Shown here: positions 2,042 through 59,607 of the stretch, piece by piece
How positions within the stretch are numbered: position 1 is the stretch's first letter
Layout of the letters: every line of letters begins with the position of its first letter
Sequence record: NC_014662.1
Strand: one strand, 5' to 3'
Length of the DNA stretch: 64,000 bases
Origin: Enterobacter phage CC31
The notes under the pieces: generated by a model
Seen by the model: only the letters and a program-made list of their open reading frames with translations
The model's database searches: none
Told to the model about the DNA's origin: nothing
Position numbers and translations under genes: made by a program

Positions 2042-2046
2042 AATGT

Positions 2047-2060
2047 GGGCCTTCGGGCCC
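2047..2060 (+). terminator. GC hairpin GGGCCTTCGGGCCC after gene 19
   Basis: 5-bp GC stem with UUCG-type loop; no U-run, so termination is uncertain. Confidence 0.45.
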
Positions 2061-2061
2061 A

Positions 2062-2069
2062 TATAAATA
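2062..2069 (+). promoter_or_regulatory. late promoter core TATAAATA upstream of gene 20
   Basis: Exact consensus between the gene 19 hairpin and gene 20 start. Confidence 0.6.
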
Positions 2070-2101
2070 TTAGTATGCTTTAACCCTTATTGGAGACTCT
2101 A

Positions 2102-7428: not shown

Positions 7429-7439
7429 TCCAATTAAAT

Positions 7440-7469
7440 GGGAGCCGCAAGGCTCCCATTGTTGTTTCT
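7440..7469 (+). terminator. intrinsic terminator after gene 23
   Basis: GGGAGCC-GCAA-GGCTCCC stem-loop followed by ATTGTTGTTTCT. Confidence 0.7.
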
Positions 7470-7513
7470 ACGGATGATAAATAAAAGTATAATCCACTAG
7501 AGGAAAAGCGACG

Positions 7514-8797: not shown

Positions 8798-8803
8798 AAG
8801 AAA

Positions 8804-8826
8804 GGGAACCTCACGGTTCCCTTTTG
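8804..8826 (+). terminator. intrinsic terminator after gene 24
   Basis: GGGAACC-TCAC-GGTTCCC followed by TTTTG. Confidence 0.7.
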
Positions 8827-8829
8827 TAG

Positions 8830-11377: not shown

Positions 11378-11404
11378 GAAAAAGCAAAAGGAGCCTTCGG
11401 GCTC
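11378..11404 (-). terminator. intrinsic terminator after hoc (minus strand)
   Basis: GGAGCC-CGAA-GGCTCC on minus strand followed by TTTTGCTTTTT. Confidence 0.7.
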
Positions 11405-11407
11405 CTT

Positions 11408-12106
11408 TTAATAGATGATACCAGCTTCTAAAGCTGAACGATGAACAATACGTCCATTACGTGATTCTTGAACATCAACTTCAGGGTAGTCTTCAATCAT
11501 TTTAGCTAACGTAGCCAAATGACAGTAATAAGGAGTATCAGAAGCGGTTGCAGTTTTCCAGTCTTTACCTTCTTCAGTAAGTTTCTGAATTGCATCCATA
11601 ACCCACCAACCAGCCCAGATATAAGCACTAGAGCGATGCGGAAGTGGATGAACATAGAGAATTGGGCATTCGTCTGGAACAACTGGCTCGGCAGCTTCAA
11701 CTGTAATATTCAGCACATTTGAAGTTTTAACAGTGTCTTCGTATCCAGTTGCTTTAGCAGTTACTTCACATGTTAAAGCAACATTTCCTTCCGTTTGAGC
11801 TACTGCACTAATATCAGCCGTAGTTTCTCCGGTTGACCATTTGTAAGCAAGAGTTGCTCCTGATGGTTGACCTGTTACTCCACAGGTTGCACTATAGCTT
11901 TCACCAACTTTAACAGTTTGAGACTGAGCTGAAATAGTAACAGTAAGATTCATAACGTCATTTACTGTTAAGTTAGTAGTTGCGGTTTGAATATCGTCTG
12001 GGTCTTCACCAGCTTTAGTGGTTGAAGTAACTTTAACTACTTTAGTTCCAGCCGAGTCAGCGGTGTAATCCAAAGTATCAGTCACAGATGATTGTACTAC
12101 AACCAT
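11408..12106 (-). CDS. hoc: outer capsid decoration protein Hoc, main reading frame (232 codons)
   Basis: Ig-like repeats plus C-terminal capsid-binding block PLPHRSSAYIW.GWWVMD...YPEVDVQESRNG matching recalled T4 Hoc; the true N-terminus lies in another frame (next feature). Confidence 0.8.
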   Translation of the reverse strand: MVVVQSSVTDTLDYTADSAGTKVVKVTSTTKAGEDPDDIQTATTNLTVNDVMNLTVTISAQSQTVKVGESYSATCGVTGQPSGATLAYKWSTGETTADISAVAQTEGNVALTCEVTAKATGYEDTVKTSNVLNITVEAAEPVVPDECPILYVHPLPHRSSAYIWAGWWVMDAIQKLTEEGKDWKTATASDTPYYCHLATLAKMIEDYPEVDVQESRNGRIVHRSALEAGIIY

Positions 12107-14801: not shown

Positions 14802-14802
14802 T

Positions 14803-14827
14803 AAAAAAGGCCCCTCAAAAGAGGGGC
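14803..14827 (-). terminator. intrinsic terminator after uvsY.-2, between convergent transcription units
   Basis: GCCCCTC-TTTT-GAGGGGC on minus strand followed by CTTTTTTATT. Confidence 0.65.
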
Positions 14828-14854
14828 AAACCACAAGTGGCATAAAACACTAGG

Positions 14855-22794: not shown

Positions 22795-22799
22795 AAAAA

Positions 22800-22829
22800 G
22801 GGAGCCGCAAGGCTCCCTTTGTTTTATTT
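22800..22829 (+). terminator. intrinsic terminator after gene 54
   Basis: GGGAGCC-GCAA-GGCTCCC followed by TTTGTTTTATTT; hairpin identical to the one after gene 23. Confidence 0.75.
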
Positions 22830-25309: not shown

Positions 25310-25332
25310 GACAAGTCCTCTATTGTTTCTTA

Positions 25333-25340
25333 TATTTATA
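25333..25340 (-). promoter_or_regulatory. late promoter core TATAAATA (minus strand) upstream of alt
   Basis: Exact consensus 24 nt upstream of the alt ATG at 25309. Confidence 0.55.
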
Positions 25341-25363
25341 GACAACAAAAGCCCCGAAGGGCT

Positions 25364-25582
25364 TTAGACTGCAATAATATTCCTGAAGATTTCAACCTTT
25401 CCACCGCCACGGGTAGCAATGACCTCATGCTTGTTAATTCCGGAAACTCGACCATCTGTAAATGATTCCACTTCACCCTGTGGACGGAATGGTAATTCGA
25501 CCAAACTCTGTGTTACATTAGCGGCTCGTCCTGAGCCTTCACCTGGATGAGCAATTGTGATAATTTCTAAATAGAATTTCAT
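25364..25582 (-). CDS. hypothetical protein
   Basis: 72 aa, ATGA overlap with gene 30 stop. Confidence 0.55.
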   Translation of the reverse strand: MKFYLEIITIAHPGEGSGRAANVTQSLVELPFRPQGEVESFTDGRVSGINKHEVIATRGGGKVEIFRNIIAV

Positions 25583-27027
25583 AGACCAGTTACCTCATGG
25601 AAATCACCCCAGATATCAGCAAACGTATTTGCTACATCTTTATCACGACGCATTTTAATCGCAATAGGCAAGAACAGCTTGACATAATCAGTTCGCCCTT
25701 CAGCAGCTAACCAACCATTACATTCGGATTCAAGAACACCACCGATGTAGTCATTCTTGTTTTCCCAAATTCGAGTTCGGTCTAACTCATGAGCATCTTT
25801 ACCTGGTTTGTCTTTAAGACCTGAACCAGCTTTAACTTTAATCAGACCACATTCGGATTCAAGATAAAAACCACCGGCTTTACCTGGCTGCTTGCTATGC
25901 TCATAGATATCAACAATACGAAGGTCAATCGTAATAACTTCTTTGAACTTATAAAGGTTTTTAGAACGGGTGTTTTCCCAGAAAGCCCCAATGTTCTTCA
26001 GGATAATACCTTCAAGACCTTCATCAACGTATTTGCGATAAATGACCTTAGCTTCATCAAGATTATGAACGATGTGGTTCTCAATCAGAATCATCTGAGA
26101 GTAACCTTGAACCATCAGTTCTAATGCACGGAAGCGAACATCATAAGCAAATCCAGATTGCTTACCTTCGGAATAAACAACATCCAACGGAACGTAATCC
26201 CATACTTGGAATTTCATACCAGCAGCTTCTTTAGCTGAGATAGTTCCTTTCAGAGATTTGTTAGCCAACCCGTTTGACATTGTACGGGATTCTTCTTTGA
26301 ATTCCTTAGCTTTACTCAGCTCGGGTAAATCACCGAAGATATCGTCCAATGGACCAGCTGGGAGAGTGCTTGCATGATAGACGAGTTCACCATCAATCAT
26401 TACACCGCCAGGATGACGTTCACGAGCTTCTTTGGTCATTTCAATGAGTTGTTGTTTTAACAAATCAAGACCAAGATACTCGTTACCCGCTCGGGACAGA
26501 ATTTTTACATCATCTAATTCATCACCACGAACTTCAGCAAATGCTCTGGCACCATCGGCTTTAAGCTGTGCAAATGCAGGGAACTTGATGTTCTTTTCAA
26601 TACCTTTTTCATCATAAGATGAAGCAAGCATCTGTGGCTGTTCGGGAATTAGATTTTTCCATACTTTATTCGCAATACTACGGGATGCGCCACAGCGCAA
26701 ATCACGAAGCAGAACTTTCTTAACAACTTCTGCATCTGCATCAGATGTTTGAGATAAAGCAATTTCAAGTTTTTCCTTTGCGGCATTACCGGTCACAACT
26801 CGCTTAGCTAATTTTTCTTCTAACAAATAAAGCATGTCTTCAAGAGTAAGATGAATATCACCTTTAGGTCTCGTATCCCACTTCTTGATGTAATACTGGA
26901 GCTTGCCATCATAAGTCATTCTGAATACTCGCTTCAGAAGCTCATTATCTTTATGACGACGGATGATAGCTTCTTTTTCTTTGGTAGAGCCAATTGAAGC
27001 AATTTCATTGATAATATCTAAAATCAT
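25579..27027 (-). CDS. 30: ATP-dependent DNA ligase
   Basis: KFPAFAQLKADGAR adenylation motif and long blocks match recalled T4 ligase; start at MILDIINEIASIGSTKEK. Confidence 0.9.
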   Translation of the reverse strand: MILDIINEIASIGSTKEKEAIIRRHKDNELLKRVFRMTYDGKLQYYIKKWDTRPKGDIHLTLEDMLYLLEEKLAKRVVTGNAAKEKLEIALSQTSDADAEVVKKVLLRDLRCGASRSIANKVWKNLIPEQPQMLASSYDEKGIEKNIKFPAFAQLKADGARAFAEVRGDELDDVKILSRAGNEYLGLDLLKQQLIEMTKEARERHPGGVMIDGELVYHASTLPAGPLDDIFGDLPELSKAKEFKEESRTMSNGLANKSLKGTISAKEAAGMKFQVWDYVPLDVVYSEGKQSGFAYDVRFRALELMVQGYSQMILIENHIVHNLDEAKVIYRKYVDEGLEGIILKNIGAFWENTRSKNLYKFKEVITIDLRIVDIYEHSKQPGKAGGFYLESECGLIKVKAGSGLKDKPGKDAHELDRTRIWENKNDYIGGVLESECNGWLAAEGRTDYVKLFLPIAIKMRRDKDVANTFADIWGDFHEVTGL

Positions 27028-28863: not shown

Positions 28864-29330
28864 TACAGAGTCTCCAATACAGTTTTTACTTTAGCTTCAG
28901 CAACTTGTTTAACAATCAGAACACGAACACCTTCAATCGCGTTGCGAATTTGCTTTTGAGCTTTTTCTGTAGCTTCATCTTCAGTGTAAGGACCAACACA
29001 GAAGGGCGATTGAGAACGACTGGCCGGGATGGTCATCATCCAGAAATCTTTATCTACAGAAGCTTGCTTAACTTCTTCAAGATACTTATGAATATCAGTA
29101 GCCAAGAAGAAGCACCATACTACATTGAATACACCAACATTAGCATGATGAAGTTTACCATCAACATCAATTGCAATAATGTTTCCACCGCCGTCTATCT
29201 TTTTGACTGTAAATGAAGTTAGTCCGTTATTCAACAGCTTAAGAAGTTCATCAGAATAAGAACTTCCACGATTCTTAAGACAAGTAACACCGGATTCAGT
29301 CAGTTTAAACTCTTTATCAATAATGCTCAT
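28863..29330 (-). CDS. hypothetical protein
   Basis: 155 aa with GAGGAA ribosome-binding site. Confidence 0.6.
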   Translation of the reverse strand: MSIIDKEFKLTESGVTCLKNRGSSYSDELLKLLNNGLTSFTVKKIDGGGNIIAIDVDGKLHHANVGVFNVVWCFFLATDIHKYLEEVKQASVDKDFWMMTIPASRSQSPFCVGPYTEDEATEKAQKQIRNAIEGVRVLIVKQVAEAKVKTVLETL

Positions 29331-29369
29331 AACTATTTCCTCAAGTAGAGGGGCCGAAGCCCCTAATTT

Positions 29370-29732
29370 TTAGATTACGAATTCGTTTGAAACGATATCC
29401 CAAATTGCTTCACGTTGTTCTTCAGTAGTTTTGAGGCTGAGAACATGACGCAGATAAAGTTTAACCAGAATTTTACGATTATCACCGTTCCAAGAAGGAT
29501 GAGTTCCTAAATCGCGAGTACGATGATCATCGTGGAAACCAATTGAAATGACTGAACCTTTGAGTTTGACGTCTAAGGTTGGGCCATTTTCAAAACTGAT
29601 GAAGACGTAGTTATCTTCCCAGTACATATCGATTTGAGCAACTGTGCCATTTTTATGTTCCCAGAGTAAAGTTGTTGAAACGTCCCATGCATTATCTTGA
29701 ACGTATTTTCTGTTAAAGTTTGTGAAGTTCAT
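29370..29732 (-). CDS. hypothetical protein
   Basis: 120 aa; preceded by early promoter and ACGGAG ribosome-binding site. Confidence 0.6.
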   Translation of the reverse strand: MNFTNFNRKYVQDNAWDVSTTLLWEHKNGTVAQIDMYWEDNYVFISFENGPTLDVKLKGSVISIGFHDDHRTRDLGTHPSWNGDNRKILVKLYLRHVLSLKTTEEQREAIWDIVSNEFVI

Positions 29733-30324: not shown

Positions 30325-30348
30325 AGTTTCCTCATAAGGCCCGAAGGC

Positions 30349-30723
30349 CTAGAACATTTTACGTTCGGTCCAGTTATCAAGATTAACTGTGCCAGTTTTC
30401 TTCATTTTCTCAATCAAGTTATCTGCGCGAGTGCGTCCATTTTCATACCACACTACATCTTCAGAATAACCATCTTCGTCTTCATAAGTTTCTGAACGAA
30501 TGTGACCGTGAATGCTTGTTTTCAAAACGTATTCAGAGCCAGTGAACCAGTTAGTCAAAACGATGTACCAGCAGAAATCAGTAGATGGACCATCAGGAGT
30601 CATACAGTGAACTACATCTCCTTGCCATGAAGACAGATGCCACATTGGCTCTTCTACTTCAATTGCTTTATATCCGTCATGGTCTTTCGTTTTGATTTTA
30701 GCGTTCAGATTAATTGTGTTCAT
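30349..30723 (-). CDS. hypothetical protein
   Basis: Trimmed to MNTINLN behind early promoter and ACGGAG ribosome-binding site. Confidence 0.6.
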   Translation of the reverse strand: MNTINLNAKIKTKDHDGYKAIEVEEPMWHLSSWQGDVVHCMTPDGPSTDFCWYIVLTNWFTGSEYVLKTSIHGHIRSETYEDEDGYSEDVVWYENGRTRADNLIEKMKKTGTVNLDNWTERKMF

Positions 30724-31008: not shown

Positions 31009-31036
31009 ACAAAAAAGGGACTCCCGAAGGAGTCCC
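31009..31036 (-). terminator. intrinsic terminator (minus strand)
   Basis: GGGACTCC-TTCG-GGAGTCCC on minus strand followed by TTTTTTGTTT. Confidence 0.65.
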
Positions 31037-36514: not shown

Positions 36515-36565
36515 ATTATTTTCCTCAAAGTTTATTATCCCGATGAGGCCCGAAGGCCTCAATTA

Positions 36566-38986: not shown

Positions 38987-39396
38987 TTTTTACCCTTATG
39001 TTGAGTATTCCACGGAGGATTGAATTTTTTGATGAACATCGGTTCTTCAAGGTCCATCGTTGAGATTGACATTTCACCGAGTTCGTTGTTTATCAGGAGA
39101 TTAAAGCACTGTCGAGCATAAAAGCTAACAGTCTTTCCTGACATCAGAGCATCGTAAATCTTAGCTGACTTAGTTGAGTCTGACGTCTGGTCTTTGCGAT
39201 TAATCGCTGTCCTGTAATAATTTATTCTCTTTCTGAGATTCTTGGTCTTACCGATGTAGACCAACTCATCATCAACTGCAATTGCATATACCACGTTCAA
39301 CTTGTTTGGAACTTGGACTTGGTCTATAGTGCAATCAGGTAGCAGCTTCAGTTGAGTGTATTCTATAAAAGAAAACTCGTTAGCAATATCTTTCAT
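38983..39396 (-). CDS. denA: endonuclease II (GIY-YIG family)
   Basis: 137 aa; VVYAIAVDDELVYIGKTKNLRKRINYYR GIY-YIG motif and near-identity to recalled T4 DenA. Confidence 0.85.
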   Translation of the reverse strand: MKDIANEFSFIEYTQLKLLPDCTIDQVQVPNKLNVVYAIAVDDELVYIGKTKNLRKRINYYRTAINRKDQTSDSTKSAKIYDALMSGKTVSFYARQCFNLLINNELGEMSISTMDLEEPMFIKKFNPPWNTQHKGKK

Positions 39397-39422
39397 AACA
39401 GAAGGGCCCGAAGGCCCTCTCC

Positions 39423-40598
39423 TTACAAATACTTTCTGAATTTCAACAGCACATCAGCATCGACATCGTTGTCAATCTGAGCTACAAGGTAACTTGAGAT
39501 TTCAACTTCTTGTGGAGCAGATTGTACCGCATCTGAGTTTAAGTATTCACGAATCCATGGGATTGGGTGACGAACAGGAGCGTCAGTAATCGGGCATGGA
39601 AGACCACAGCTACGCATACGTGAAACTGTCAGATAGTCAATGAAGTCATGAAGGATTTTCACAGATAGACCAGGAACCCCGCCATCGCGCCACAGATGAA
39701 CTGCCCATTCTTTTTCTTGGCGGTTGATTTCCATGAAGATATCAACTGCTTCTTGTTCGCATTCACGAGCAATCTGAACCCATTCTTCGCCATCAGTACC
39801 AAGCTGAAGCTGACGAATAATGTACTGTGTACCCTTAAGATGGAGCTGTTCATCACGTGCGATGAACTTCATAATCTTGGAGTTACCTTCCATGATTTCC
39901 ATGTTCTTATGGAAATTGAAGGTACATGCGAAAGATACGTAAAAACGAATTGCTTCAAGACCATTGATGACATGCAGACACAGATAAAGTGCTTTCATTA
40001 GTTCACGTTTAGCATCAATGACATATCCTTCATACATTTCAATGTCATTTTGTTGGCATGAACCAAGAGATTCTTCATACCGCTCTTTAGCGTTTTCCCA
40101 CAGACGAGTCTTCAGAATTACATCGTCATAATAATGACCAATTGTCTCAGCTCGTTTCATAATTGCTTCATCGAGAACAATCTCATCAAACACCTTTGCC
40201 GGGTCATTCAGCAGGTTACGCATGATGTGAGTATATGAACGAGAGTGAATCGTTTCAGAGAACGTCCAGGTCTGGTTCCATGTATCGAGTGATGGGTCAG
40301 AAATCAGAGCAGAAAGAACAGCAGCTGGAGCTCGGCCTTGGATTGAATCCAGAAGGCTTTGATATTTCAGATTATCAAGGAATACGTTTTGCTGGCCAAC
40401 TGGAAGCTTTTCAAATTGAGCTCGGTCAGTCATCAGGTTAACTTCTTCAGGACGCCAGAAGAACGAGAGTTGTTTCTCAATCAGTTCTTCAAATGTACGG
40501 TGGCGCTGAATATCATATCGTGCAATACCAAGCCCACTTCCGAAGAACATCGGCTCGGTCATCAAATCTACTTGTTGCGTATTAAAAACTGTGCTCAT
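39423..40598 (-). CDS. nrdB: ribonucleotide reductase small subunit (intron-free)
   Basis: 391 aa continuous ORF at the T4 nrdB position. Confidence 0.9.
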   Translation of the reverse strand: MSTVFNTQQVDLMTEPMFFGSGLGIARYDIQRHRTFEELIEKQLSFFWRPEEVNLMTDRAQFEKLPVGQQNVFLDNLKYQSLLDSIQGRAPAAVLSALISDPSLDTWNQTWTFSETIHSRSYTHIMRNLLNDPAKVFDEIVLDEAIMKRAETIGHYYDDVILKTRLWENAKERYEESLGSCQQNDIEMYEGYVIDAKRELMKALYLCLHVINGLEAIRFYVSFACTFNFHKNMEIMEGNSKIMKFIARDEQLHLKGTQYIIRQLQLGTDGEEWVQIARECEQEAVDIFMEINRQEKEWAVHLWRDGGVPGLSVKILHDFIDYLTVSRMRSCGLPCPITDAPVRHPIPWIREYLNSDAVQSAPQEVEISSYLVAQIDNDVDADVLLKFRKYL

Positions 40599-47396: not shown

Positions 47397-47428
47397 TTCA
47401 ATCTCCAAAGGGCCCGAAGGCCCCATTA

Positions 47429-48127: not shown

Positions 48128-48156
48128 AGAAACAACAAAAGGAGCCCGAAGGCTCC
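48128..48156 (-). terminator. intrinsic terminator after gene 32 (minus strand)
   Basis: GGAGCC-TTCG-GGCTCC on minus strand followed by TTTTGTTGTTT. Confidence 0.75.
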
Positions 48157-48164
48157 TTCTTTTA

Positions 48165-55093: not shown

Positions 55094-56241
55094 TGGCTAA
55101 AATGATGGCGAGTTTTGGACAAGGATTTGTCCAAACTCAAGTTCTTTCTGAGAACAATTCCGTCAAGTATAAGCTAGCATTTGCGGCAGGGGTAGCTCAG
55201 TCTACCCCTTCTGAAGCTTATTATACTTTCCAGGATGAACCTGCTGGGGTTCAATATGACGGCCCAGGTATAAACCTGAGAGAATTTAATCCAGCAACTA
55301 ATCAAATGCTTAACTTCAAAACTTTTAATTTAAATCCTGAAGACGCAAACGCGGCTACTAAAGCATTTGTGCAACATATGCAAACCCTCCCGGCTTCTGA
55401 TAATTTGCTTATCATTACATCATATGAGAGGCTTTATTCAAGCCCTTCTGTAGATGCTTTGATGAAATCTCTTGGTTCAGTTATGTGGCCAAGTATATTT
55501 CTTACTACAAATTATGGATGCAATTACTGTGCTTTGTACTCTATTAGAAGAAAGAAAATAATTGCTGAAAACACAACATATTCAGATTTCAAAAAAGAGA
55601 ATAGAGACATACGTCCAGCTTTAGAATTCATTTATGATAAAGCAAATGATATCGGAGCTACTGGATATTCACAAAAAGCTATTGATGATTCAAACACATA
55701 TATCATTGATAAAGATAATCCAAGTAAAAGATTTCCGCAGCAGCTTGAGCAAATATCTCCAATAAATCAATACGGAATTGCTCCTGGAGATAAAATGCAG
55801 TGGAACTTTGAAGTAAAAGGAGATTCTTCTTTAACAGCTCCAGGACAAAACATTAGAGTAAATCTTCGTTGGTTCCAAGGCACTTCATATCTTTCTGGAG
55901 CAGTAGTTGAAACACAACCGACTGACGCAGATAAATGGATGTGGCACCAGAGATATGTAACCGTTCCTGATAATGCTGATGGATTTACAATAATTGCTTC
56001 TCGTTATCCAGAAGTAGCTGGTTCTGAAGGAAGCGGTGCTATTCGTGAAATGATGCTCACTCAAGTATCGAGAGCTGTAGAACCTCTTATGGACCCGGCT
56101 GGATTTGGTGTAAACGGAATCAGAATGAACAATATGATTTCTGATGGTGTAGATGAAAATACACTGTTAGTTCTTCCTGATACAGAAGACGATAAATCTG
56201 GTAATATCTACTCGGCTGACTTCAGAGAGTATAATGACTAA
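55093..56241 (+). CDS. 35: long tail fibre hinge connector gp35
   Basis: 382 aa, ATGA overlap with gene 34, T4 position. Confidence 0.8.
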   Translation: MAKMMASFGQGFVQTQVLSENNSVKYKLAFAAGVAQSTPSEAYYTFQDEPAGVQYDGPGINLREFNPATNQMLNFKTFNLNPEDANAATKAFVQHMQTLPASDNLLIITSYERLYSSPSVDALMKSLGSVMWPSIFLTTNYGCNYCALYSIRRKKIIAENTTYSDFKKENRDIRPALEFIYDKANDIGATGYSQKAIDDSNTYIIDKDNPSKRFPQQLEQISPINQYGIAPGDKMQWNFEVKGDSSLTAPGQNIRVNLRWFQGTSYLSGAVVETQPTDADKWMWHQRYVTVPDNADGFTIIASRYPEVAGSEGSGAIREMMLTQVSRAVEPLMDPAGFGVNGIRMNNMISDGVDENTLLVLPDTEDDKSGNIYSADFREYND

Positions 56242-56300
56242 AGCCCTTCGGGGCTTTTGTTGTTTCTGAATAAATACAACAAACATATAAGGGGAAGGCC

Positions 56301-59574: not shown

Positions 59575-59579
59575 TTTAA

Positions 59580-59593
59580 GGGCCTTCGGGCCC
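59580..59593 (+). terminator. GC hairpin GGGCCTTCGGGCCC after gene 37
   Basis: Identical to the hairpin after gene 19; no clean U-run. Confidence 0.4.
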
Positions 59594-59607
59594 TAGAGGA
59601 TTTTTAT

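What the first reader, a model, noticed from the sequence alone, without database searches (positions are those of the whole stretch)
29349..29364. C(UUCG)G-type hairpins in short gaps between early genes
On the transcribed minus strand, GC stems with UUCG loops occur at about 25349-25364, 29349-29364, 30337-30350, 36545-36560, 39403-39418 and 47410-47423, usually without a U-run. Several ORF-track N-termini would translate through them, which is why those starts were trimmed. They probably stabilise or mark processing sites in polycistronic early mRNAs.
Basis: partly seen in the sequence, partly recalled or inferred. Interest (0 to 1): 0.3.

Follow-up and report, generated by a model that had tools for sequence, protein, structure and literature searches.

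The report
Classic T4-type CUUCGG mRNA hairpins
The short GC hairpins with UUCG loops are real, conserved RNA structures sitting just after stop codons in this T4-like phage, but they are the well-known "CUUCGG hairpins" first described in phage T4 in 1988, so the finding is ordinary.

Summary
All six hairpins exist at the stated coordinates. Twelve strong stems closed by C(UUCG)G occur where 0.10 is expected by chance, and no other tetraloop occurs more than twice.

All 12 lie in the ~7% non-coding DNA, and each starts between 2 nt inside and 11 nt after the upstream stop codon. Eleven of 12 have UUCG on the mRNA-sense strand. Across related loci the tally is 39 sense to 2 antisense.

The window is a Karamvirus, a T4-like phage of Enterobacter and Klebsiella. 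Orthologous junctions in T4, Mineola and dozens of viral contigs carry the same hairpins with compensatory stem changes. Loop replacements are mostly UACG, GCAA or GUAA, which are other extra-stable tetraloops.

Three sub-types emerge:
- U-tailed intrinsic terminators: 31017, 48137, 11386, 25348, 56240.
- One "split Shine-Dalgarno" translation enhancer at nrdB|denA (39402), built like T4 gene 38.
- Bare hairpins without a U-run, including the focal 29349. These are most likely 3'-exonuclease barriers or cistron boundaries that transcription reads through.

This is the phenomenon of Tuerk et al. 1988. Its interpretation is plausible for the bare sites but incomplete. Novelty: already known.

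The parts
29349..29364 (-). Focal hairpin AGGGGC-UUCG-GCCCCU between gene 30.7 and a 155-aa ORF. It has no U-run (bare intercistronic type).
   Evidence: dG -11.2 kcal/mol. It is conserved after 30.7 in 14 of 18 viral loci and in T4, where the loop is UUCA. Pair count: 88.9% of cells paired against 80.1% in shuffles, with a G-C to C-G swap.
29370..29372 (-). Stop codon (TAA) of gene 30.7, 5 nt upstream of the focal hairpin.
29328..29342 (-). SD GAGGAAA (29336-29342), a 5-nt spacer and the ATG (29328-29330) of the downstream 155-aa ORF. The SD lies downstream of the hairpin.
   Evidence: PHROG 8920 gives a full-length match to the short form.
25348..25365 (-). AAAGCCC-UUCG-GGGCUUU between alt.1 and alt, followed by UGUUGUCU and the late-promoter motif TATAAATA. 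Terminator-like.
   Evidence: Orthologous hairpins occur in T4 (L003 13542-13565) and in Mineola, where a terminator is annotated.
30337..30350 (-). AGGCC-UUCG-GGCCU overlapping the gene 30.8 stop codon, 12 nt before the next ATG. Bare type.
   Evidence: It is conserved in Karamvirus loci. L008 and Mineola have UGGGGC/GCCCCA (Mineola is at the matching junction; the junction in L008 was not checked).
31017..31036 (-). GGGACUCC-UUCG-GGAGUCCC followed by UUUUUU, after gene 30.9.
   Evidence: Among 15 phages the loops are UUCG (10), UACG (3), UUCA (1) and the inverted CGAA (2). Mineola annotates a terminator here.
36544..36561 (-). UGAGGCC-UUCG-GGCCUCA, 1 nt after a small ORF's stop codon and 29 nt before the ATG of a 159-aa ORF. 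Bare type.
   Evidence: A TTG at 36562 would read through it, but the short form matches PHROG 4482 from residue 1.
39402..39419 (-). GAGGGCC-UUCG-GGCCCUU between the SD and the denA AUG. This is a split ribosome-binding site.
   Evidence: Covariation: 5 of 7 pairs have double-sided changes, 19 cells against 6.0 in shuffles, 0 of 500 shuffles reach this. The build matches T4 gene 38.
39419..39425 (-). nrdB stop codon TAA (39423-39425) overlapping the SD AAGGAG (39419-24). The SD lies 22 nt from the denA ATG at 39394-39396, or about 6 nt once the hairpin is looped out.
   Evidence: Read from the sequence. The review gives 22 to 5 nt for T4 gene 38.
47409..47424 (-). GGGGCC-UUCG-GGCCCU between a 90-aa ORF and an 82-aa ORF, followed by SD GGAG. 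Bare type.
   Evidence: The in-frame ATG at 47426 is not conserved: it is ATA in PG7 and frame-shifted in KaAlpha.
48137..48160 (-). AGAAGGAGCC-UUCG-GGCUCCUUUU followed by GUUGUUUCU, 4 nt after the gene 32 stop codon.
   Evidence: Mineola annotates a terminator at the same place.
2043..2064 (+). AUGUGGGCC-UUCG-GGCCCAUAU, 1 nt after the gene 19 (tail tube) stop codon. Its 3' arm overlaps a TATAAATA late-promoter motif ahead of gene 20 (portal).
11386..11409 (-). Terminator hairpin after hoc, AAAAGGAGCC-CGAA-GGCUCCUUUU followed by GCUUUUUCU on the sense (minus) strand. The UUCG reads on the antisense strand in this genome only.
   Evidence: The source contig (L057, 100% matches to the window) has CGAA, while three other Karamvirus contigs, KaAlpha and Mineola have UUCG.
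56240..56257 (+). AAAGCCC-UUCG-GGGCUUU followed by UGUUGUUUCU between genes 35 and 36. The 18-mer is identical to the one at 25348.
59579..59594 (+). AGGGCC-UUCG-GGCCCU between genes 37 and 38, followed by SD GAGGA. This is the same junction as T4's classic gene-38 hairpin, but here the SD is downstream of the stem.

Best explanation
**What they are.** These are the classical C(UUCG)G extra-stable RNA hairpins of T4-type phage messages. Each is a 5-10 bp G+C-rich stem closed by C-G and capped by UUCG. Each is encoded immediately after the stop codon of a gene and folds in the polycistronic mRNA.

**Shown.**
- They are real and massively over-represented.
- They are confined to intergenic gaps and oriented with the transcript.
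- They are conserved at orthologous junctions from Karamvirus to T4 with compensatory stem changes.
- When the loop is replaced, it is mostly by another extra-stable tetraloop (UACG, GCAA, GUAA). Selection therefore acts on hairpin stability and not on a protein-binding sequence.

**Inferred mechanism for the focal hairpin (29349) and the other U-run-less sites (30337, 36544, 47409, 59579, 2043).**
- RNA polymerase reads through, because the next gene has no promoter of its own in the 12-37 nt that follow.
- The hairpin then acts as a boundary for the upstream cistron. It blocks the 3'-to-5' exonucleases RNase II, RNase R and PNPase after endonucleolytic cuts downstream (RegB or RNase E), or after leaky termination.
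- It also keeps the adjacent ribosome-binding site free of competing structure.

**The other sub-types.**
- The U-tailed members (31017, 48137, 11386, 25348, 56240) work as ordinary intrinsic terminators.
- The nrdB|denA member (39402) works as a split Shine-Dalgarno/AUG bridge. It shortens a 22-nt SD-AUG spacing to about 6 nt, as shown experimentally for T4 gene 38.
For: **Enrichment.** 12 observed against 0.10 expected, and no other tetraloop occurs more than twice.

**Placement.**
- 12 of 12 lie in the 7.4% non-coding DNA.
- The distance from stop codon to stem is -2 to +11 nt (median about 2), while the distance from stem to ATG ranges from 5 to 146 nt (coordinates).

**Orientation.** 11 of 12 are sense in the window (binomial p = 0.006). 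Among distinct hairpins in 52 related loci the tally is 39 sense to 2 antisense (p = 8e-10). Both exceptions are long-stem terminators with an exactly inverted loop.

**Conservation and covariation.**
- 30.7 site: present in 14 of 18 loci and in T4, with a G-C to C-G swap; covariation score 0.189 against 0.068, 0 of 500 shuffles reach it.
- denA site: 5 of 7 pairs are compensatory, 19 cells against 6.0, 0 of 500.
- Loop substitutions: UACG at the 30.7 and 30.9 sites; GCAA and GUAA at the denA site.

**The hairpin belongs to the upstream gene.** It persists after 30.7 in front of at least 6 different downstream genes. The L015/L016 indel breakpoint is a 14-nt SD-linker repeat and not the hairpin.

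**Read-through is required.** There is no promoter in the short gaps, and promoter-like sites are not enriched (25 found against 36.6 expected).

**Literature.**
- CUUCGG hairpins are 'especially abundant in T4', lie predominantly in intergenic regions, and stop reverse transcriptase (citing Tuerk et al. 1988).
- T4 intergenic stem-loops often carry UUCG and resist RegB.
- RegB cuts in the SD of T4 gene 30.7, and RNase II and RNase R attack from such ends.
- The split SD of genes 38 and 25 is established experimentally.
- Mineola's curators placed terminators at the U-tailed positions.
Against: - No RNA 3'-end, half-life or termination data exist for this phage or were obtainable here. The exonuclease-barrier role is inference from position and analogy.
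- The 61-nt context of the focal site does not fold significantly better than shuffles (z = -1.38). The significance rests on counts and comparative data, not on energy.
- One close relative (L014) has lost the 30.7 hairpin cleanly, and two more (L005, L009) carry a stem mismatch. The structure is therefore dispensable in at least some backgrounds.
- The downstream SDs here are mostly GAGGAAA, not the GGAG that RegB cuts. I did not check whether this phage encodes RegB.
- Predicted sense-versus-antisense stability differs by only about 1 kcal/mol in the energy model.
Confidence: 0.6

Rival explanations
1. The U-run-less hairpins are weak intrinsic terminators or attenuators. They stop or pause a fraction of RNA polymerases and so step expression down along the early operons. 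They would not act after transcription.
For: - Their sequences grade into those of the clear terminators in the same window (31017, 48137, 25348).
- PeSL stem-loops in RB49 terminate efficiently in a reporter assay.
- The nrdB|denA hairpin is followed by a U-rich spacer in many phages, for example CCCUUUUUUAAU in L032 and CCCAUUUUAUU in T4.
Against: - The focal site is followed by CUACUUGAGG. Across 14 orthologues no U-run ever appears after the stem.
- The terminator scan does not list 29349, 30337, 36544, 39402 or 47409 on the sense strand.
- The downstream genes have no promoter in the gap and therefore depend on read-through.
Confidence: 0.2
2. The hairpins serve translation of the downstream gene. 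They would act as a structural insulator or standby platform next to the Shine-Dalgarno sequence, or as a split-SD bridge. The upstream mRNA's stability would not be the target.
For: - This is the supported reading for 39402. The order SD, hairpin, AUG is conserved in 32 of 34 loci plus T4 and Mineola, with strong covariation. The mechanism is shown experimentally for T4 genes 38 and 25.
- All bare hairpins lie within 5-37 nt of the next start codon.
Against: - At the focal site, and at 30337, 36544, 47409 and 59579, the SD lies downstream of the stem at normal spacing, so nothing needs bridging.
- The hairpin position is anchored to the upstream stop codon, not to the start codon. The stem-to-ATG distance varies from 5 to 146 nt.
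- The 30.7 hairpin persists in front of at least 6 unrelated downstream genes.
- L014 expresses the same downstream gene without the hairpin.
Confidence: 0.15
3. The elements act at the DNA level. They would be cruciform or recombination linkers that shuffle gene cassettes (PeSL-like), or small mobile palindromes.
For: - Several hairpins border ORFs that T4 lacks (PG7_222, _224, _240).
- Near-identical copies recur: the 18-mers at 25348 and 56240, and the stems at 11386 and 48137.
- There is a clean 23-nt presence/absence difference between L018 and L014.
- Loop inversions show that the palindromes are mutationally active as DNA.
- PeSLs are proposed recombination linkers in T4-like phages.
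Against: - The strong strand bias of the asymmetric loop (39 to 2) is not expected for a DNA-level palindrome.
- There is no promoter component, so the PeSL definition is not met.
- In the one exchange event examined, the breakpoint is a 14-nt SD-linker repeat, and the second copy has no hairpin.
- Loop replacements by other extra-stable RNA tetraloops point to RNA thermodynamics.
Confidence: 0.04

Closest known systems
CUUCGG hairpins of bacteriophage T4 mRNA (Tuerk et al. 1988, PNAS 85:1364; cited in PMC8948821 and PMC4371310)
   Same: - The motif is identical: (X)n-C-UUCG-G-(Y)n with complementary G+C-rich flanks.
- The location is intergenic and the orientation is sense.
- The phage family is the same.
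- T4 itself carries the orthologous hairpins at alt.1|alt, 30.9|30.8 and g37|g38, and, with drifted loops, at 30.7|30.6 and nrdB|denA.
   Different: - Nothing differs in kind.
- This Karamvirus has about 10 in the syntenic 50 kb, where T4 has 4.
- In T4, some junctions use UUCA or GCAA instead of UUCG.
Split Shine-Dalgarno/AUG initiation regions of T4 genes 38 and 25 (Nivinskas, Malys and co-workers; reviewed in PMC3014915)
   Same: - Hairpin 39402 lies between AAGGAG and the denA AUG.
- The linear spacing is 22 nt, the same figure as gene 38. It collapses to about 6 nt when the stem forms.
- The sequence is almost the same as the T4 gene 38 site: TAAGGAGAGGGCCUUCGGGCCCUUCUGUUAUG against TAAGGAGAGGGGCUUCGGCCCUUCUAAAUAUG.
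   Different: - The gene is different (denA), and the review consulted does not list it.
- The focal hairpin 29349 and the other bare sites do not have this arrangement.
Rho-independent (intrinsic) terminators
   Same: There is a G+C-rich hairpin directly after a stop codon. Five members have U-rich tails and coincide with terminators annotated in Mineola.
   Different: The focal site and five others lack any U-tract, and transcription must read through them to express the next gene.
PeSL promoter-early stem-loop cassettes of T4-like phages (Arbiol 2010; Comeau 2014)
   Same: They are repeated intergenic stem-loops next to an SD and ATG in T4-like genomes. They are associated with variable ORFs.
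   Different: [quoted passage not shown] The gaps here (hairpin to ATG 5-38 nt at most sites) hold none.
- The reported PeSL stem consensus is polyG/polyC or AGNA/TCNT, and UUCG is not mentioned.
Intercistronic mRNA stabiliser hairpins, e.g. REP elements in E. coli operons (from general knowledge, not tested here)
   Same: They are stable stem-loops at cistron ends, thought to block 3' exonucleases and set differential segment stability.
   Different: REPs are longer imperfect palindromes with their own sequence family and protein partners. The hairpins here are minimal tetraloop stems.

Membership tests
T4-type CUUCGG extra-stable hairpins (Tuerk 1988) | UUCG tetraloop closed by a C-G pair | tested here: met
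   All 12 hairpins read C-UUCG-G. At 11386 this is on the antisense strand only.
T4-type CUUCGG extra-stable hairpins (Tuerk 1988) | Complementary flanks of 2-8 or more bases forming a stem | tested here: met
   The stems are 5-10 bp and mostly G-C. Covariation supports pairing at two sites.
T4-type CUUCGG extra-stable hairpins (Tuerk 1988) | Predominantly intergenic, in phage messages, on the sense strand | tested here: met
   12 of 12 are intergenic. 11 of 12 are sense in the window, and the tally in related loci is 39 to 2.
T4-type CUUCGG extra-stable hairpins (Tuerk 1988) | Unusual thermal stability, and reverse-transcriptase stops | not testable with these tools
   Only predicted energies are available, from -7.9 to -15.3 kcal/mol.
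Intrinsic terminator | U-tract immediately 3' of the stem | tested here: not met
   For the focal 29349 the tail is CUACUUGA. The feature is also not met at 30337, 36544, 39402, 47409 and 59579. It is met at 31017 (UUUUUU) and partly met at 25348, 48137, 56240 and 11386.
Intrinsic terminator | Transcripts end at the site | not testable with these tools
   No transcript data were available.
Split SD-hairpin-AUG initiation region (T4 gene 38/25 type) | SD upstream of the stem, start codon a few nt downstream, linear spacing too long without the stem | tested here: not met
   Focal 29349: the SD GAGGAAA is downstream of the stem at a normal 5-nt spacing. The feature is met at 39402: the spacing of 22 nt becomes about 6 nt, and the arrangement is conserved in 32 of 34 loci.
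PeSL (promoter-early stem-loop) | [quoted passage not shown] | tested here: not met
   The gaps are too short: 18 nt from hairpin to ATG at the focal site. The scan finds no promoter downstream of the hairpins and no enrichment (25 against 36.6). The only overlap is a weak 9-of-12 match at 36562-36534.
Any curated Rfam RNA family | Match at gathering threshold | tested here: not met
   There are 0 matches in the 64-kb window.

The most novel reading that the evidence does not exclude
The U-run-less CUUCGG hairpins may form a conserved 'punctuation' layer of T4-like phage operons. It would set cistron-by-cistron mRNA stability by blocking 3' exonucleases after endonuclease cuts.

The nrdB|denA hairpin may be a previously unlisted third split-RBS, conserved across Tevenvirinae. 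It may also double as a terminator for nrdB transcripts. That would imply that the RefSeq T4 denA start (GTG) is mis-annotated.

Recurrent exact loop inversions in the long-stem terminators would then be a visible mutational signature that selection tolerates only where the stem alone gives enough stability.
Probability: 0.3. Interest if true: 0.3.

Novelty: already known. Interest (0 to 1): 0.15.

Why it matters
- It matters little as a discovery. [quoted passage not shown]
- Practically, recognising these hairpins helps annotation. They mark true gene ends and argue against N-terminal extensions that read through them. Examples are the two ORF-track extensions here and the GTG start of denA in the T4 RefSeq record.
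- They also separate terminator sites from read-through sites when operon maps are drawn for T4-like phages.
- What the U-run-less members do has apparently never been measured directly, and would be easy to test.

Tried and rejected
1. **Rfam and tRNA scans of the window.** Nothing was found.
2. **PeSL membership.** Rejected, because the gaps hold no promoter and promoter-like sites are below shuffle expectation.
3. **Hairpin as the cassette-exchange breakpoint.** L015 and L016 diverge exactly after hairpin plus SD. However, the extra gene in L015 is flanked by a 14-nt SD-linker repeat whose second copy has no hairpin. The linker is therefore the exchange site, not the hairpin.
4. **Energy z-score of the focal site in 61-nt context.** It is not significant (z = -1.38). 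Dinucleotide shuffles of a short G+C-clustered stretch are a poor null, so counts and comparative data were used instead.
5. **Original papers.** Tuerk 1988 (PMC279771) and the Miller 2003 T4 genome review (PMC150520) are not held. Their content is cited second-hand.
6. **Search for T4 Term-seq or 3'-end mapping papers.** Nothing relevant turned up.
7. **The presumed source record NC_014662 (CC31).** It is not in the annotated collection, so the depositors' start calls could not be checked. The identification as CC31 rests on my memory of the genome length (165,540 bp) plus 100% matches to an IMG/VR contig of that length.
8. **RegB-coupled model.** It could not be tested. The downstream SDs are mostly GAGGAAA rather than GGAG, and I did not look for regB in this genome.

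Full report
**Observation.** On the minus strand at 29349-29364 the sequence is AGGGGC-UUCG-GCCCCU. It lies 5 nt after a TAA stop codon and 18 nt before an ATG that has a GAGGAAA Shine-Dalgarno sequence.

- 31017-31036 and 48137-48160 on the minus strand
- 2043-2064, 11386-11409, 56240-57 and 59579-94 reading UUCG on the plus strand

Stems of at least 5 Watson-Crick pairs (at least 3 G-C) capped by TTCG occur 12 times. The mean in 100 dinucleotide-preserving shuffles is 0.10 and the maximum is 1. No other tetraloop occurs more than twice. The bare hexamer CTTCGG occurs 39 times against 18.3 expected.

A crude gene caller leaves 7.4% of the window non-coding, and all 12 hairpins lie there. Among the 50 intergenic gaps of at least 14 nt, about 28 hold a hairpin of -6 kcal/mol or better. 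Eleven of those have a sense-strand UUCG loop, two have GCAA, and the rest are singletons.

**What the window is.** The region is 92-95% identical to Karamvirus phages of Enterobacter and Klebsiella (PG7, KaAlpha, myPSH1140). It is syntenic with T4 alt-30-30.x-rIII-31-cd-pseT-alc-rnlA-denA-nrdB-nrdA-td-frd-32-59, flanked by late structural genes. An IMG/VR contig of 165,540 bp matches at 100%. That length fits Enterobacter phage CC31 from memory, but the record is not in the annotated collection.

**Gene context.** The hairpins lie at these junctions:

| Hairpin | Junction |
|---|---|
| 2043 | g19\|g20 |
| 11386 | hoc\|orf193 |
| 25348 | alt.1\|alt |
| 29349 | 30.7\|orf155 |
| 30337 | 30.8\|orf173 |
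| 31017 | 30.9\|orf67 |
| 36544 | orf43\|orf159 |
| 39402 | nrdB\|denA |
| 47409 | orf90\|orf82 |
| 48137 | g32\|frd.3 |
| 56240 | g35\|g36 |
| 59579 | g37\|g38 |

Three of them lie in late structural-gene units, so the feature is not specific to early genes.

The first base of each stem lies between 2 nt inside and 11 nt after the upstream stop codon (values -2, -2, -2, -2, 1, 1, 3, 4, 4, 4, 5, 11). The distance from stem to the next ATG ranges from 5 to 146 nt. The hairpins are therefore anchored to the end of the upstream gene.

**RNA level or DNA level.** UUCG is not its own reverse complement, so orientation is informative.
- In the window, 11 of 12 hairpins read UUCG on the strand of the flanking genes (p = 0.006).
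- In 52 related loci oriented by their early genes, 39 distinct hairpin-plus-flank sequences are sense and 2 are antisense (p = 8e-10).
- Both exceptions are the 9-bp-stem terminator after gene 30.9, with the loop exactly reverse-complemented.
- The one exception in the window, the 10-bp hoc terminator, is likewise inverted only in this genome. Three other Karamvirus contigs, KaAlpha and Mineola read UUCG there in an otherwise near-identical context.

Inversions thus occur as mutations of the DNA palindrome. They persist only where a long stem makes the loop bonus unimportant. This argues for selection on RNA hairpin stability.

**Conservation and covariation.**

*Gene 30.7 site.* Using gp30.7 as an anchor, 14 of 18 viral contigs (gp30.7 68-100% identical) have a hairpin right after the stop codon.
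- Stems are GGGGC/GCCCC or GGGCC/GGCCC.
- Loops are UUCG, UACG (2 contigs) or UUUG (1 contig).
- One phage has lost the hairpin cleanly, and three have overlapping genes instead.
- T4 has GAGGGGC-UUCA-GCCCCUU at the same 30.7|30.6 junction.
- Pair counting gives 88.9% of cells paired against 80.1% in shuffles, and a covariation score of 0.189 against 0.068. No shuffle out of 500 reaches either value.

*nrdB|denA site.* Of 34 contigs, 32 have the hairpin, as do T4 and Mineola.
- Stems include GGGCC, GGGGC, GGGC, GGGAC and GGGAGAC.
- Loops are UUCG in 24 loci, GCAA in 4 and GUAA in 1 (counts), with occasional variants such as UUUG.
- Five of 7 pairs show double-sided changes: 19 cells against 6.0 in shuffles, with 0 of 500 reaching that. 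Slid controls are far lower.

*Other junctions.* T4 and Mineola also have hairpins at the alt, 30.9, frd-region, gene 32 and hoc junctions. When the loop changes it usually becomes another member of the extra-stable UNCG or GNRA classes. This again points to thermodynamic selection rather than a sequence-specific ligand.

**Sub-types.**

*(i) Terminator-like.*
- 31017 is followed by UUUUUU. 25348, 48137 and 56240 share the tail UUUUGUUGU(U/C)U. 11386 has GCUUUUUCU.
- Mineola's curators annotated terminators after hoc, before alt, after 30.9 and after gene 32.

*(ii) Split ribosome-binding site at 39402.*
- The order is nrdB TAA overlapping AAGGAG, then the hairpin, then CUGUU, then the denA AUG.
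- The SD-to-AUG distance is 22 nt in linear sequence and about 6 nt with the stem formed.
- This is the arrangement shown experimentally to enhance initiation of T4 gene 38 (22 to 5 nt) and gene 25.
- The T4 gene 38 site is almost the same sequence.
- The T4 RefSeq record starts denA at a GTG that reads through the hairpin (VGRKAHFI-MKEIA...). The crystallised EndoII construct (2WSH) is a His-tag followed by MKEIA....

*(iii) Bare hairpins with no U-run and the SD downstream.*
- These are the focal 29349 plus 30337, 36544, 47409, 59579 and 2043.

**Mechanism for the bare type (inferred).**
- The gaps hold no promoter. Promoter-like sites number 25 against 36.6 expected, and none lies downstream of a hairpin. 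Polymerase must therefore read through.
- The hairpin stays with gene 30.7 in front of at least six different downstream genes.
- In the one indel examined, the breakpoint is a 14-nt SD-linker repeat whose second copy lacks a hairpin.
- T4 early messages are cut by RegB in SD sequences, including that of gene 30.7, and by RNase E. RNase II and RNase R then digest from the new 3' ends.
- T4 intergenic UUCG stem-loops resist RegB.

The best-supported reading is a read-through boundary hairpin. It would protect the upstream cistron from 3' exonucleases and keep the neighbouring ribosome-binding site unstructured. Rival readings are weak attenuation, a downstream translation role, and a DNA-level role. 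The last is disfavoured by the strand bias.

**Weaknesses.**
- There are no transcript data.
- The fold z-score of the focal site in 61-nt context is -1.38.
- The hairpin has been lost in one relative and is mismatched in two more.
- The downstream SDs here are GAGGAAA, not the RegB target GGAG.

**Comparison with what is known.** These are the CUUCGG hairpins of Tuerk et al. 1988. They are described as common in phage intergenic regions, 'especially abundant in T4', and as stops for reverse transcriptase. Their discovery in T4 mRNA founded the study of the UUCG tetraloop.
- They are not PeSLs, because the promoter is missing.
- No Rfam family matches.
- The only mildly new points are the higher density in Karamvirus (10 in the syntenic 50 kb against 4 in T4), the denA split-RBS conserved across Tevenvirinae, and the recurrent loop inversions.

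**N-terminus claim.** Only two ORF-track starts read through hairpins: TTG at 36562 and ATG at 47426.
- The 47426 ATG is ATA in PG7 and out of frame in KaAlpha.
- The short form of the 36514 gene matches its PHROG profile from residue 1 and has a strong SD.
- Trimming those starts was justified.

**Verdict.** The phenomenon is already known. Interest is low.

Noticed in passing
window 11386-11409; L014 1835 and L015 1445: Exact 4-nt loop inversions (UUCG to CGAA on the sense strand) occur in long-stem terminators in otherwise conserved contexts. The hoc terminator is inverted only in the window's genome; four other Karamvirus genomes (three IMG/VR contigs and KaAlpha) and Mineola read UUCG. 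The 30.9 terminator is inverted in 2 of 15 phages. This looks like hairpin-mediated template switching, tolerated only in stems of at least 9 bp.
   Followed up: partly
L003 (T4 NC_000866) 25518-25952, minus strand: The T4 RefSeq record starts denA at a GTG that reads through the conserved SD-hairpin-AUG structure, adding VGRKAHFI. All homologues start MK(D/E)IA, and the 2WSH crystal construct is a His-tag followed by MKEIA. The annotated start is probably 8 codons too long.
   Followed up: partly
window 39394-39425 and 34 related loci (L023-L056): The nrdB|denA junction is a split Shine-Dalgarno/hairpin/AUG site conserved across Tevenvirinae. Its sequence is nearly identical to the T4 gene 38 site. 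The review consulted names only genes 38 and 25 as examples. In many phages the spacer after the stem is U-rich enough to look like a terminator as well.
   Followed up: yes
window 25330-25347 (minus) and 2058-2070 (plus): The T4 late-promoter motif TATAAATA lies immediately after hairpin 25348 (ahead of alt) and overlaps the 3' arm of hairpin 2043 (ahead of gene 20). This gives terminator-then-late-promoter junctions.
   Followed up: no
window 7429-7513, 8798-8829, 14802-14854, 22795-22823: Other strong intergenic hairpins carry non-UUCG loops. GGGAGCC-GCAA-GGCUCCC occurs twice, at 7429-7513 and at 22795-22823. The second lies between convergent genes and has A/U runs on both sides, which makes it a likely bidirectional terminator. 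GGGAACC-UCAC-GGUUCCC and GCCCCUC-AAAA-GAGGGGC also lie between convergent genes.
   Followed up: no
L015 2879-2892 and 3375-3388, compared with L016 2879-2892: A ~480-bp gene is present in L015 and absent in L016. It is bracketed by a 14-nt direct repeat of the ribosome-binding linker CTCTGAGGAAAATA. This suggests that gene gain and loss in these phages can proceed by recombination between conserved SD linkers.
   Followed up: partly
window 36534-36562 (minus): A weak sigma-70-like match (TTGAGG, 17-nt spacer, GATAAT; 9 of 12) has its -35 hexamer formed by the 5' arm of hairpin 36544. It is conserved in PG7 and KaAlpha and is probably chance.
   Followed up: no
window 25348-25365 compared with 56240-56257; 48137-48160 compared with 11386-11409: There are pairs of near-identical terminator modules at unrelated loci. 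One pair shares the same 18-mer AAAGCCCTTCGGGGCTTT and the tail TGTTGT. The other pair shares near-identical 10-bp stems (A[A/G]AAGGAGCC / GGCTCCTTTT) around the loop, which is inverted (CGAA on the sense strand) at 11386. They could reflect convergence under tight constraints or copying between sites.
   Followed up: no
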